Of a stretch of 64,000 nucleotides of DNA, positions 6,210 through 43,814 are shown one piece after another. Made by a program: the position numbers and the translations under genes. The stretch is from assembly GCF_009914755.1 (NCBI RefSeq), contig NC_060933.1, one strand, 5' to 3'. The stretch is from the human T2T-CHM13v2.0 reference genome, Homo sapiens. The notes beneath the pieces are model-generated. The model worked only from the letters and a program-made list of their open reading frames with translations. It searched no databases and was not told the origin of the DNA. How positions within the stretch are numbered: position 1 is the stretch's first letter; every line of letters starts with the position of its first letter.

Positions 6210-10770
<4,561 letters not shown>

Positions 10771-41432: not shown

Positions 41433-42512
41433 TTACTGTAAACTATAATTACCCTACTGATCTAACACTAGGCCTTCTTTTTTTAAGCAAACTGTATGTT
41501 TGTATGCATTAATAAACTTTTCTGCATTCCTCCCTCCCTACCACCCTTTCCAGCCTCTGGTAACCACTAGTCTACTCTTAATCTATATGAGGTCCACTTT
41601 TTTAGCTCCCACATGCCGGTGAGAATGTGTGATATTTGTCTTTCTGTGCTTGGCTTATTTCACTTGACATAATGACCTCCGGTTCCGTTTTTGTTGCCGC
41701 AAATGACAGGATTTCATTTGTTTTTATGGCTGAATAATATTCCATTGTATATATATGCTACTTTTTTTTAATCCATTCATCTGTTGATGGGCACTTAGGT
41801 TGATTCCATAGTTTTGCTCTTGTGAATAGTCCTCCAATACACATGGGAGTGCAGCTATCTCTTTAATATATTCATCTCTTTTTTTTAAATGTATACCCAG
41901 TGGAATTACTGGATCAAATGTAAATGTAAGTGTTATATTTTTAGTTTTTTAAGGAACCTTCATACTGCTCTCCAGAGTGGCTATACTAATTTACATTCCC
42001 AAGAGTGTATGAGGGTTCCCCTTTCTCCACATCGTCACCAGCATCCGTTATTGCCTGTCATATTGATAGAAGCTACTTTAATGGGGGTGAGATTATATAT
42101 CATTGTAGTTTTGATTTGCATTTCCCTGAGTGATTACTGATGTTGAGCATTTTTTCCACATACTTGTTTGTCTTTTGTGTGTTTTTTGAGAAATATCTAT
42201 TCAGTTCTTTTGCCATGTTTACTTGGATTATTTGTTTTTTATCGGTTTGTTTTTGGCTAGTGAGCTGTTTGAGCTCTTTATATCTTCTGATTATTAACCC
42301 CTTTTTAGATGGGTAGTTTGCAAATATTTTCTCATTCCGTGGGTTGTCTCTTCACTTTTTTGATCATTTTCTTTGCTGTGCACAAGCTTTTTTGCTTGGC
42401 GAAACCCCATTTGTACATTTTTGCTTTGGTTTCCTGTGCTTTTGAGGTCTTAGAGACACAAAAAAATCTTTGTCCAGGCCAGTGTTCTAGAGCAATTCTC
42501 CAACGTTTTCTT

Positions 42513-42971
42513 TTTTTCTCTTTTTTTTTTTTAAATAAAGAAAAGAGGTTTAATTGACTCAGTTCCACAGGCTGTACAGGAAGCACGTCTGGGGGGTCCT
42601 CAGGAAACTTACAATCATGGTGGAAGGTGAAGGGGAAGCAGGCATGTCTTACATGGCTAGAGAAGGAGGAAGAAAGAGCAGAGGGAGGAGCTACACACTT
42701 TTAAACAACCAGATCTTTTTTTCTTTTGAGACAGAGTCTGGCTCTGTTGCCCAGGCTGGAGTGCAGTGATGCCATTTTGGCTCACTGCAACCTCTGCCTC
42801 CTGGGTTCAAGTGATTCTCATGCCTCAGCCTCCTGAGTAGCTGGGACTACAGGCATGTGCCACTTTCATGCGGGTCCATGTGAAGAGACCACCAAACAGG
42901 CTTTGTGTGAGCAACATGGCTGTTTATTTCACCTGGGTGAAGGTGGGCTGAGTCCGAAAAGAGAGTCAGCC
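42513..42971 (-). mobile_element. Composite retrocopy: LTR7 (HERV-H) R-U5 42864-42970 + Alu right arm 42716-42863 + MST LTR 3' part 42533-42715 + poly(A) 42513-42532
   Basis: GCTGACTCTCTTTTCGGACTCAGCCC...AATAAACAGCCATGTTGCTCACACAAAGCCTGTTTGGTGGTCTCTTCAC...CATGAAA; ATTAAA 16 nt before poly(A); 15-bp TSD (13/15) at 42498-42512 and 42972-42986. Confidence 0.85.
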
Positions 42972-43814
42972 CTCCAGTGTTTTCTTGAAACAGTTTTATA
43001 GTTTGAGGTCTTATTAAAGTCTTTAATCCATTTTTATTCCTGGATATGGCAAGAGATAGGGGTCTGGTTTCATTTTTCCATATATAGTTATGCAGTTTTT
43101 CTAGCACCATTTATTGAAACAACTATTATTTCTCCATTTTATGTTCTTGGCACCTTTGTTGAAGATGAGTTGATGTAAATGTGTGTATTTATATCTGAGT
43201 TCTCTATTCCATTCCATTGGTCTATGGATCTGTCTTGATGCCAGTACCATGCTGATTTGGTTACTATAGCTTTGTAGAAAATTTTGAAGTCAGGTAGTGT
43301 GATGCCTCCAGCTTTGTTCCTTTTTGCTGAGGGTTGTTTTAGCTATTTGGGATCTTTTATGGTTCCATATGAATTTTAGGATTTTTTTTTCTACTTCTAT
43401 GAAGAGCGTCACTGTATTTTGATAGGAATTGCATTGAATCAGTAAATTGCTTTGGTTAGTATTGATATTTTAGCAATGTTCTTCCACTCCATGAACATGG
43501 ATTATATTTCCATTTTTTTTTGTATCCTCTTCAGTTTCTTTCATCAGTGTTTTACAGTTTTTGTTATATAGATATTTCACTTCATTGGTTAAATTGATTC
43601 CAAGGTATTTTATATTCTTTGTAGCTATCGTAAACAGGCTTGCTTTCTTGATTTCTTTTTCAGATTCTTCACTGTTGGCATATCTAAATTCTACCAATTT
43701 TTATATGATGATTTTATATCTTGCAACTTTACTGAATTCAGTTGTCAGTTTTTACAGATTTTTTGTGGAGTATTTAGGGTTTGTTTTTTTTTTAATTTTT
43801 TAAGTGTAAGATCA

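What the first reader, a model, noticed from the sequence alone, without database searches (positions are those of the whole stretch)
42498..42986. Full-length composite retroposon: LTR7-initiated, Alu-containing, MST-polyadenylated transcript inserted by L1 machinery
Seen: on the minus strand the insert reads one G, then HERV-H LTR7 from GCTGACTCTC to the U5 end CATGAAA (42970-42864), an Alu right arm with its tail (42863-42716), the 3' part of an MST LTR with ATTAAA (42554-42549), and poly(A) 16 nt later. The whole unit is bracketed by a 15-bp TSD (ctccaacgttttctt / ctccagtgttttctt) at a TC/AAGA L1-endonuclease-type site, and the host L1MA resumes without loss. Established: TSD + poly(A) + endonuclease site mark L1 target-primed reverse transcription, LTR7 is a strong promoter in pluripotent cells, and full-length retrocopies can gain a cap-derived 5' G. 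Inference: a donor locus where a solo LTR7 sits in an Alu that sits in an MST LTR made a ~450-nt capped RNA (LTR7 start, MST poly(A) signal) that was retrotransposed whole. A repeat masker would report three unrelated fragments. If further copies exist this is a small SVA-like composite family. It lies sense to LRRC19 intron 1 and adds two poly(A) signals there.
Basis: partly seen in the sequence, partly recalled or inferred. Interest (0 to 1): 0.82.

Follow-up and report, generated by a model that had tools for sequence, protein, structure and literature searches.

The report
One-off retrocopy of LTR7-started RNA
A short RNA that started in a HERV-H LTR7 promoter, ran through half an Alu and ended at an MST LTR poly(A) signal was copied once into this old L1 by the L1 machinery; it is a neat molecular fossil, not a new repeat family.

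Summary
On the minus strand, window 42498-42986 reads: 15-bp TSD (13/15), one untemplated G, LTR7 R-U5 without U3, an Alu right arm with its tail, the 3' part of an MST-type LTR with ATTAAA, a 20-nt poly(A), and the TSD again. Three other L1 copies in the window carry the duplicated 15 nt only once.

The best reading is an L1-mediated retrocopy of a capped, roughly 440-nt RNA. It started at the LTR7 transcription start and was polyadenylated at the MST signal.

It is a one-off. In T2T-CHM13:
- The LTR7/Alu junction recurs only at an independent solo LTR on chrX.
- The Alu/MST junction recurs only at chr1:180.43 Mb. That locus is 98% identical over the MST part, genomic, rearranged and without LTR7, so it is probably the donor remnant.
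- No SVA-like family exists, and the copy lacks its promoter.

Thirteen other U3-less LTR7 copies start at the same base with the same extra G. Twelve of them are HERV-H retrocopies. Genome-wide, 45 LTR7 R ends carry poly(A). LTR7-started RNAs were therefore repeated L1 substrates.

A published L1 5' transduction from an LTR7Y start site, also with an untemplated G, is a close precedent.

The parts
42972..42986 (-). 5' copy of the 15-bp target-site duplication (AAGAAAACACTGGAG on the minus strand)
   Evidence: 13/15 match to the other copy. Single-copy in three other L1 copies of the window.
42971..42971 (-). Untemplated G. It matches neither LTR7 (C or T at this place) nor the target (A).
   Evidence: The same extra G sits in front of 13 other U3-less LTR7 starts. 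Attribution to the cap is from passages in PMC3287187 and PMC6425141.
42907..42970 (-). LTR7 R region (64 nt), from the transcription start GCTGAC to GCTCAC. It contains the bypassed AATAAA at 42923-42928.
   Evidence: Start: TATAAAA begins 30 nt upstream in the published consensus. End: poly(A) is added after GCTCAC in HERV-H retrocopies.
42864..42906 (-). LTR7 U5 (43 nt), running to the last base of the LTR (CATGAAA)
   Evidence: The chrX solo LTR ends at the same base, next to its 5-bp duplication. Proviral copies continue from there into internal sequence.
42716..42863 (-). Alu right arm starting at GTGGCAC, with its own short A-rich tail (AAAAGAAAAAAA)
   Evidence: Alignment to full Alus. 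Sub-threshold Metazoa_SRP match.
42533..42715 (-). 3' part of an MST-type (MaLR) LTR, from GATCTGGTTG to the cleavage site. ATTAAA lies at 42549-42554.
   Evidence: The chr1 relative continues past this point to the natural LTR end.
42513..42532 (-). Poly(A) tail, 20 nt (18 A, 2 G). The border with the TSD is ambiguous by 2 A.
42498..42512 (-). 3' copy of the target-site duplication (AAGAAAACGTTGGAG on the minus strand)
42200..42497 (-). Host L1 (ORF2-region homology), downstream of the insert and continuous with the upstream part
42987..43300 (-). Host L1, upstream of the insert

Best explanation
This is a processed retrocopy, made by L1 target-primed reverse transcription, of a short non-coding RNA of about 440 nt.

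Inferred donor structure: a solo LTR7 or 3' LTR7 had integrated into an Alu, and that Alu had earlier inserted into an MST-type LTR, all in one orientation.

Inferred steps:
1. Pol II started at the LTR7 start site.
2. It ignored the LTR7's own AATAAA 42 nt downstream, as 5' LTRs do.
3. It read through U5, the Alu right arm and the MST remainder.
4. The RNA was cleaved about 16-20 nt after the MST ATTAAA.
5. L1 ORF2p nicked an old L1 at TCTT/GA and primed on the poly(A).
6. It copied the RNA to its cap, which gave the extra G, and left a 15-bp duplication.

The copy has no U3, so it has no promoter and could not found a family.

Shown directly: the anatomy, the TSD, the single-copy target, the start position, and the genomic existence of the Alu/MST junction.

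Inferred: the donor's LTR7/Alu junction, the cap origin of the G, and a rough age of 10-20 Myr.
For: 1. Insertion hallmarks: 15-bp TSD (13/15), a poly(A) tail, and a target that is single-copy in 3 of 3 other L1 copies examined.
2. The 5' end lies 30 nt downstream of TATAAAA in the published LTR7up consensus.
3. An exact search for G+GCTGACTCTCTTTTCGGACTC with 13 free upstream bases gave 41 places. Of these, 26 have U3 upstream, 1 has an inverted R, and 14 (this one plus 13 others) have unrelated, mostly A-rich upstream sequence.
4. Of the 13 others, 12 continue into shared HERV-H internal sequence and 1 continues into an Alu.
5. Six of those 12 have an LTR7 R end plus poly(A) 2.8-5.9 kb downstream on the same strand. 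The one checked fully, chr5:12427135-12431409, has A30 and a 12/13 TSD.
6. The LTR7 runs to the very last LTR base. It abuts Alu GTGGC, as in a chrX solo LTR that has a 5-bp GTGGC duplication.
7. The 29-nt Alu-tail/MST junction is exact at only one other place in 3.1 Gb, chr1:180429623-651.
8. There the MST part is 98.2% identical (2 mismatches in 111). The best of 45 other loci reached 92.0% and the median was 81%.
9. The MST at chr1 continues beyond the poly(A) site into a flank that is unique in the genome.
10. The poly(A) follows the ATTAAA of the MST, and 6 other MaLR LTRs end in poly(A) at the same place.
11. An untemplated G at full-length L1-mediated insertions is attributed to the cap (passages in PMC3287187). 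The same was reported for an RNA started in LTR7Y (PMC6425141).
Against: - No locus in T2T-CHM13 carries the LTR7/Alu junction together with the MST. At up to 3 mismatches in 25 nt, only this site and the independent chrX site are LTR7/Alu junctions among 22 matches; the others I took from their matched sequence to be ordinary Alus.
- The chr1 relative has no LTR7, no MST 5' part and no Alu left arm within 10 kb on either side. The donor's LTR7/Alu junction is therefore inferred, not seen.
- The target site TCTT/GA departs from the recalled TTTT/AA consensus at two places.
- Two TSD mismatches in 15 nt are more than the roughly 2.3% divergence from chr1 would predict, although one mismatch is at a CpG.
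- No primate genomes were available, so no empty site has been seen.
Confidence: 0.85

Rival explanations
1. Template-switch chimera: L1 reverse transcriptase began on an Alu-MST RNA and jumped to a HERV-H RNA during a single insertion event, so no donor with an LTR7/Alu junction ever existed.
For: The LTR7/Alu junction is absent from the rest of the genome apart from an independent chrX event. HERV-H RNAs were evidently often in L1 complexes, with 45 R-poly(A) ends. Chimeric retrogenes made by template jumps are described (search listing and abstracts only).
Against: The jump would have had to land on the last base of the LTR, in an RNA that normally continues into internal sequence (12 of 12 proviral-type copies do). 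It would also have had to leave the Alu at the position where a bona fide LTR7 integration with a GTGGC duplication exists on chrX. No discrete R-U5 RNA is known (recall). The other junction is proven genomic.
Confidence: 0.05
2. About the chr1 relative only: chr1:180.43 Mb is not the donor remnant. It is a second, 5'-truncated and 5'-inverted (twin-primed) retrocopy of a read-through RNA from a donor that has since been lost.
For: The topology [inverted 383->212][397->end] with a 13-nt gap is what twin priming gives. The inverted piece abuts the (GAAA)n tail of an older Alu with GAAAC microhomology.
Against: The forward piece runs through the poly(A) site to the natural LTR end and on into flank that is unique in the genome. 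No poly(A) plus duplication was found downstream. This reading needs a lost donor as well. A single inversion-plus-deletion at the donor explains the same facts, including the missing duplication of the neighbouring Alu.
Confidence: 0.28
3. Three separate insertions at this site (MST, then Alu, then LTR7), later trimmed by deletions that happen to mimic a retrocopy.
For: Nested repeats are common. A repeat masker would list three fragments.
Against: The LTR7 is cut exactly at its start site and carries an extra G. The MST is cut at its poly(A) site and followed by A20. One 15-bp duplication of L1 sequence brackets the whole unit, and the L1 is otherwise uninterrupted. The same Alu/MST junction exists on chr1 at 97-98% identity.
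Confidence: 0.02

Closest known systems
L1 5' transduction started at an LTR7Y start site (Ref_Chr1_p31.1a; Salvador-Palomeque et al. 2019, PMC6425141, passages read)
   Same: A capped RNA initiated at a HERV-H LTR7-type start site was mobilised by L1 and carries a single untemplated G at its 5' end.
   Different: There the RNA was spliced into, and carried, a full L1, so it was mobilised in cis. Here there is no L1 in the RNA, so mobilisation was in trans. The RNA is unspliced and ends at an MST poly(A) signal.
HERV-W processed pseudogenes (Grandi and Tramontano 2017, PMC5537654, passages; Grandi et al. 2016, PMC5016936, passages)
   Same: 5' end at R-U5 without U3, a poly(A) tail, a TT/AAAA-type site and a 5-15 bp duplication. 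The copy has no promoter.
   Different: Those are copies of proviral RNA ending in U3-R of the 3' LTR. This one leaves the LTR into flanking Alu and MST and uses the MST signal. The LTR family is also different (LTR7, not LTR17).
SVA, LAVA and similar composite retrotransposons (PMC3287187, passages; PMC5174737, abstract only)
   Same: A mosaic of pieces of other repeats, including Alu-derived and LTR-derived parts. Pol II transcript, poly(A), TSD, L1-dependent, sometimes with an extra 5' G.
   Different: SVA has thousands of copies sharing the same junctions and keeps amplifying. Here one full copy exists and none of the tested candidates is a sibling.
Template-jump chimeric retrogenes such as U6/L1 (PMC2104539, PMC4476161, PMC6789731; abstracts only)
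   Same: Several unrelated RNA-derived modules joined head to tail within one TSD-flanked, poly(A)-ended insert.
   Different: In those, the junctions arise during or before reverse transcription and are not genomic. Here one junction is found in genomic DNA on chr1, and the other coincides with an LTR terminus.

Membership tests
L1-mediated processed retrocopy | Target-site duplication of about 5-20 bp flanking the whole insert | tested here: met
   15 bp, 13/15 identical. The duplicated L1 sequence is single-copy in 3 other L1 copies.
L1-mediated processed retrocopy | 3' poly(A) added at a cleavage site downstream of a poly(A) signal | tested here: met
   ATTAAA at 42549-42554, with the A-run starting 16 nt later. 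The chr1 relative has non-A sequence at that point.
L1-mediated processed retrocopy | Endonuclease-type target (TTTT/AA; consensus recalled) | tested here: inconclusive
   The site is TCTT/GA, which matches 4 of 6 positions.
L1-mediated processed retrocopy | Colinear with an RNA: starts at a transcription start, lacks the promoter | tested here: met
   The insert starts 30 nt after TATAAAA, at the same base as 13 other U3-less copies.
L1-mediated processed retrocopy | A donor locus colinear with the insert exists | tested here: inconclusive
   Only chr1:180.43 Mb shares the Alu/MST junction. It is rearranged and has no LTR7 within 10 kb on either side.
SVA-like composite retrotransposon family | Several copies sharing the same internal junctions | tested here: not met
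   LTR7/Alu junction: this site plus one independent chrX event among 22 matches. Alu/MST junction: this site plus chr1. Zero of 6 MST-poly(A) ends are siblings, at 72-83% identity.
SVA-like composite retrotransposon family | Copies can be transcribed again (internal or carried promoter) | tested here: not met
   The U3, which holds the TATA box and upstream elements, is absent from the copy. Expression itself was not testable here.
HERV processed pseudogene (HERV-W type) | 5' R-U5 and 3' U3-R of the same provirus | tested here: not met
   The 5' R-U5 is present, but the 3' end is an MST LTR and there is no HERV-H internal sequence.
Template-jump chimeric retrogene | Junctions not present in any genomic locus | tested here: not met
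   The Alu/MST junction is present in genomic DNA at chr1. The LTR7/Alu junction was not found elsewhere, so that half remains open.
LTR7 (HERV-H LTR) | Sequence match to a published LTR7 consensus | tested here: met
   4 differences in 104 bases from the LTR7up consensus in PMC8912925 (compared by eye with the sequence). The subfamily cannot be assigned from R-U5 alone.

The most novel reading that the evidence does not exclude
The insert is one member of an uncatalogued population of LTR7-initiated RNAs that L1 mobilised in trans. In T2T-CHM13, 45 LTR7 R ends are followed directly by poly(A), against 0 in the reversed-pattern control. At least 12 HERV-H copies start at the R start with a cap-type G. 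If this holds, HERV-H was spread in part by L1, as HERV-W was. That runs against the statement in a review that HERV-W is the sole HERV group mobilised by L1 (PMC5537654). Short read-out chimeras such as this insert, and chr19:42779184, would be the non-proviral tail of the same process in early embryonic or germline cells where LTR7 is active.
Probability: 0.5. Interest if true: 0.5.

Novelty: new member of a known kind. Interest (0 to 1): 0.3.

Why it matters
The insert is a dated snapshot of one ancient transcript. It fixes the LTR7 start site and the MST cleavage site to the nucleotide. It also shows that a solo or 3' LTR7 drove read-out transcription in cells that contribute to the germline.

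It preserves an LTR7/Alu/MST arrangement that no longer exists intact in this assembly.

For annotation, a repeat masker would call three unrelated fragments where there was one insertion event.

It has no sign of function, it is a single copy, and it has no promoter. In its own right it is a tidy example rather than a discovery.

The wider by-product deserves a systematic count: many U3-less, poly(A)-ended HERV-H copies. The review literature I could read treats L1 mobilisation as peculiar to HERV-W.

Tried and rejected
1. The first whole-genome search suggested a family. 23 of its 45 match rows span Alu plus MST, and 7 loci span LTR7 plus Alu.
   - I aligned 6 of the 23. Their Alus are full-length and sit 18 nt further downstream in the MST, at TTTAAAAG, so they are independent insertions at a hot spot.
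   - I aligned 6 of the LTR7+Alu loci. All have full U3, and their junctions differ by 0-14 nt, so they are independent LTR7 integrations into Alus.
2. chr6:77419219 matches the 30-nt junction pattern exactly, but it is an ordinary MST at 78% identity.
3. chrX:108277293 was considered as the donor and rejected. The Alu part is about 86% identical against about 95% for the LTR part, the Alu has a 17-nt deletion, and there is no MST downstream.
4. I looked for LTR7, or the MST 5' part, within 10 kb either side of the chr1 relative and found none.
5. I looked for a duplication of the flank of the Alu next to the chr1 inverted piece and found none within 20 kb.
6. I guessed 16-17-nt duplications for two HERV-H retrocopies (chr1:108.5 Mb, chr3:110.29 Mb). 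No second copy lay nearby at up to 1 mismatch.
7. chr19:42779184 (R-U5 with extra G, then Alu, then A16) showed no duplication within 4 kb, so its nature stays open.
8. Searching with the chr5 U3-R-poly(A) end as DNA gave only one further poly(A)-ended LTR among the 40 scored, at chr1:197.11 Mb. The pattern search was more useful.
9. Splicing as the origin of the LTR7/Alu junction was rejected. There is no GT donor at the U5 end of proviral copies.
10. Rfam gave only sub-threshold Alu-related matches: Metazoa_SRP and mir-3135.
12. Pavlicek et al. 2002 could not be read. It may already mention HERV-H processed pseudogenes.
Full report
**What is there**

Read on the minus strand, window 42498-42986 consists of the following (coordinates checked):
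- AAGAAAACACTGGAG (first TSD copy).
- One G.
- 107 nt of LTR7 from GCTGACTCTC to CATGAAA.
- 148 nt of Alu right arm, beginning GTGGCACATGCC and ending in AAAAGAAAAAAA.
- 183 nt of an MST-type LTR, from GATCTGGTTG through ATTAAA to CTTTATTT.
- 20 nt of A-rich tail.
- AAGAAAACGTTGGAG (second TSD copy).

The two 15-mers match at 13 of 15 positions.

Both flanks are L1. Blasted against the rest of the window, they hit three other L1 copies. In the copy at about 7111-7590, the upstream flank ends and the downstream flank begins on the same 15 nt. The alignment shows the motif once in all three copies. So the 15 nt are a true target-site duplication, and the host L1 lost nothing.

**Identity of the modules**

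- LTR7. The 26-nt start of the first module occurs in one paper of the searchable library. That paper, Carter et al. 2022, prints LTR7 reporter inserts. The LTR7up consensus there matches the insert at all but 4 of 104 comparable bases. It has TATAAAA beginning 30 nt upstream of GCTGAC (passage read; comparison by eye).
- Alu. The second module aligns with the right arm of full Alus. It gives a weak signal-recognition-particle RNA match.
- MST. The third module belongs to a very abundant LTR, with 1037 matches of a 30-mer at up to 3 mismatches. Its consensus continues past the insert's end.
- The names MST and L1MA are recalled. No repeat library was available to test them.

**Is it a family?**

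The window's genome (T2T-CHM13, 3.1 Gb) could be searched.

The first search looked like a family. 23 of its 45 match rows span Alu plus MST at 75-82% identity, and 7 loci span LTR7 plus Alu. Alignments dispose of both groups:
- In the 6 Alu+MST loci I aligned, a full Alu sits 18 nt further 3' in the MST, at TTTAAAAG. That is an L1-endonuclease hot spot hit many times independently.
- In the 6 LTR7+Alu loci I aligned, the LTR has its full U3 and the junctions are scattered over 0-14 nt.

Junction-specific patterns settle the question:
- The LTR7/Alu junction (25 nt, up to 3 mismatches) gave 22 matches. This site and chrX:108277293 are LTR7/Alu junctions; I took the other 20 for ordinary Alus from their matched sequence and did not check them individually.
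- The chrX site is a solo LTR inside an Alu with a 5-bp GTGGC duplication. It has a different Alu (about 86% identity, with a 17-nt deletion) and no MST. It is an independent integration at the same Alu position.
- The Alu-tail/MST junction (29 nt) is exact only here and at chr1:180429623-651. Six further matches at 3 mismatches are unrelated Alu tails.
- An exact 30-mer match on chr6 is an ordinary MST at 78% identity.
- Six other places where an MST-type LTR ends in poly(A) at the same site are 72-83% identical to the insert. They are unrelated MaLR retrocopies, not truncated siblings.

There is therefore one full copy and no family.

**The chr1 relative**

At chr1:180.43 Mb the sequence reads, on the plus strand:
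- An AluS-like element with a (GAAA)n tail.
- The reverse complement of insert positions 383 to 212 (MST part, Alu tail, last 60 nt of the Alu).
- Insert position 397 onward in forward orientation, running through the poly(A) site to the natural end of the LTR and into flanking DNA.

The inverted MST part differs from the insert at 2 of 111 bases (98.2%). The best of 45 other loci reached 92.0%, and the median was 81%. It therefore derives from the same individual MST copy.

The flank beyond the LTR end is unique in the genome. The forward piece is therefore genomic, not copied from the polyadenylated RNA.

Within 10 kb on either side there is no LTR7 and no MST 5' part. The neighbouring Alu has no flanking duplication.

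My preferred reading (about 55%) is that this is the donor locus after a single inversion-plus-deletion. That event would have removed the LTR7, most of the Alu, the MST 5' part and the neighbour's duplication.

The main alternative (about 28%) is a twin-primed retrocopy of a read-through RNA from a donor that is now lost. The topology fits, but no poly(A) or duplication is found. Only outgroup genomes can decide.

Four mismatches in 171 nt (2.3%) suggest the two sequences separated roughly 10-15 Myr ago, with wide error. That estimate is my inference, using a recalled rate of about 0.1% per Myr per lineage. It is compatible with the ages given for the younger LTR7 waves (PMC8912925, passages).

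**The 5' end**

I searched for the R start preceded by G, with 13 free bases upstream. This gave 41 exact matches and none for the reversed pattern:
- 26 have LTR7 U3 upstream (ordinary LTRs with G at -1).
- 1 has an inverted R.
- 14 have unrelated upstream sequence. In most of these, a T-rich to A-rich switch lies 11-17 nt before the G.

I fetched the 13 other than this site. Twelve run from U5 into the same internal HERV-H sequence. One, chr19:42779184, runs from U5 into an Alu right arm and A16.

The chr5 copy (12427135-12431409) ends in U3-R followed by A30. It is flanked by AAAAAGTATTCTT / AAAAACTATTCTT, so it is a textbook processed pseudogene.

A pattern for the R end plus 14 A (up to 3 mismatches) finds 45 places, against 0 for the reversed pattern. 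For 6 of the 12 R-start loci, one of these lies 2.8-5.9 kb downstream on the same strand. For the other 6, none was found.

Two guessed duplications did not recur nearby. The chr19 composite has no detectable duplication within 4 kb.

These copies define R empirically as 64 nt, from GCTGAC to GCTCAC. They also show that the insert starts where LTR7-driven RNAs start. The extra G fits reverse transcription of the cap, as proposed for L1 and SVA insertions (PMC3287187, passages).

**Mechanism**

The two internal junctions are ordinary insertion junctions: an LTR terminus abutting Alu, and an Alu tail abutting MST. One of them is seen in genomic DNA. The RNA was therefore colinear with a donor locus rather than assembled by template jumps (rival at 5%).

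The RNA passed the LTR7's own AATAAA, which lies 42 nt from the cap, and used the MST ATTAAA about 370 nt further on.

L1 nicked TCTT/GA in an old L1, primed on the poly(A), and copied the RNA to the cap.

Because U3 lies upstream of the start site, the copy has no promoter. That alone explains why no family arose.

The insert lies in intron 1 of LRRC19 in sense orientation, and in an IFT74 intron in antisense orientation (supplied gene table). It places AATAAA and ATTAAA on the LRRC19 strand. I have no evidence that either signal is used.

**Comparison with the literature**

The nearest published case I found is an L1 whose 539-nt 5' transduction began at an LTR7Y start site and carries one untemplated G (PMC6425141, passages).

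HERV-W processed pseudogenes share the R-U5 start, the poly(A) and the duplication (PMC5537654; PMC5016936).

The same review calls HERV-W the sole HERV group mobilised by L1. The 45 poly(A)-ended LTR7 R termini argue otherwise.

Six phrase variants for HERV-H processed pseudogenes returned no paper in the searchable library. However, Pavlicek et al. 2002 and other subscription papers could not be read, and all ten paper searches are spent. I therefore do not claim that this is unpublished.

**Verdict**

- The donor is seen only as a rearranged remnant.
- The family idea is rejected.
- The insert is a new member of a known kind and of modest interest. The by-product on HERV-H retrocopies is worth a proper census.

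Noticed in passing
Own genome: chr5:12427135-12431409; also R-start sites at chr4:97614068, chr5:122995723, chr6:103277454, chr8:89870449, chr8:93073400, chr10:110452699, chr11:42267778, chr1:108506656, chr3:110291590, chr16:68772979, chr22:28203609 (L085-L097, except L093): Twelve HERV-H copies lack U3 and begin at the R start with an extra G. Six of them have an R end plus poly(A) 2.8-5.9 kb downstream. One was checked at both ends and has A30 and a 12/13 duplication. Genome-wide, 45 LTR7 R ends are followed by poly(A). These look like HERV-H processed pseudogenes made by L1, although a review states that only HERV-W is mobilised this way.
   Followed up: partly
Own genome chr19:42779184 onward (L093, L099): A second short composite: extra G, LTR7-type R-U5 without U3, then an Alu right arm (starting at a different Alu position) and A16. 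No flanking duplication was found within 4 kb, so its origin is unresolved.
   Followed up: partly
Loci L002-L030 (for example L002:1501-1807): 23 of 45 match rows in the first genome search are full Alus inserted in the same orientation at the TTTAAAAG of MST-type LTRs. That is 18 nt from the junction in this insert, and it is a recurrent L1-endonuclease hot spot inside the LTR. Six of the 23 were checked by alignment.
   Followed up: partly
Own genome chrX:108277293 (L032:1047-1640) and chr19:57438140 (L028): LTR7-type LTRs integrated at the same Alu position (before GTGGC/GTGGT) and in the same orientation as in the inferred donor. chrX shows the 5-bp GTGGC duplication. This is either chance or a mild integration preference. 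A rough estimate from recalled copy numbers suggests it is compatible with chance.
   Followed up: partly
Own genome chr10:15572757, chr13:37802992, chr14:86665849, chr16:62549787, chr21:28004016, chr1:7977765 (L100-L105): Six MaLR-type LTRs end in poly(A) about 16-20 nt after their ATTAAA. The chr10 copy is 5'-truncated and flanked by a duplication of about 14-16 bp (GAAAGGATTTGCAA). RNAs polyadenylated in MaLR LTRs were therefore also retrocopied.
   Followed up: partly
Own genome chr1:180429080-180429900 (L053:1080-1700): An AluS-like element without any flanking duplication abuts an inverted 172-nt piece of an Alu-bearing MST. The rest of the MST follows in forward orientation with 13 nt missing. 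This is either a complex inversion-plus-deletion or a twin-priming product.
   Followed up: partly
Own genome chr3:90149530: An LTR7 R start is preceded by the reverse complement of R (CTGGGTGCAGGCGG before GCTGAC), which is a fold-back arrangement. Only the 35-nt pattern match was seen.
   Followed up: no
window 42748-42807 (+): Sub-threshold Rfam match to mir-3135 (52.1 bits against a gathering score of 80), on the antisense strand of the Alu arm. This is typical of Alu-derived hairpins and probably has no meaning.
   Followed up: no
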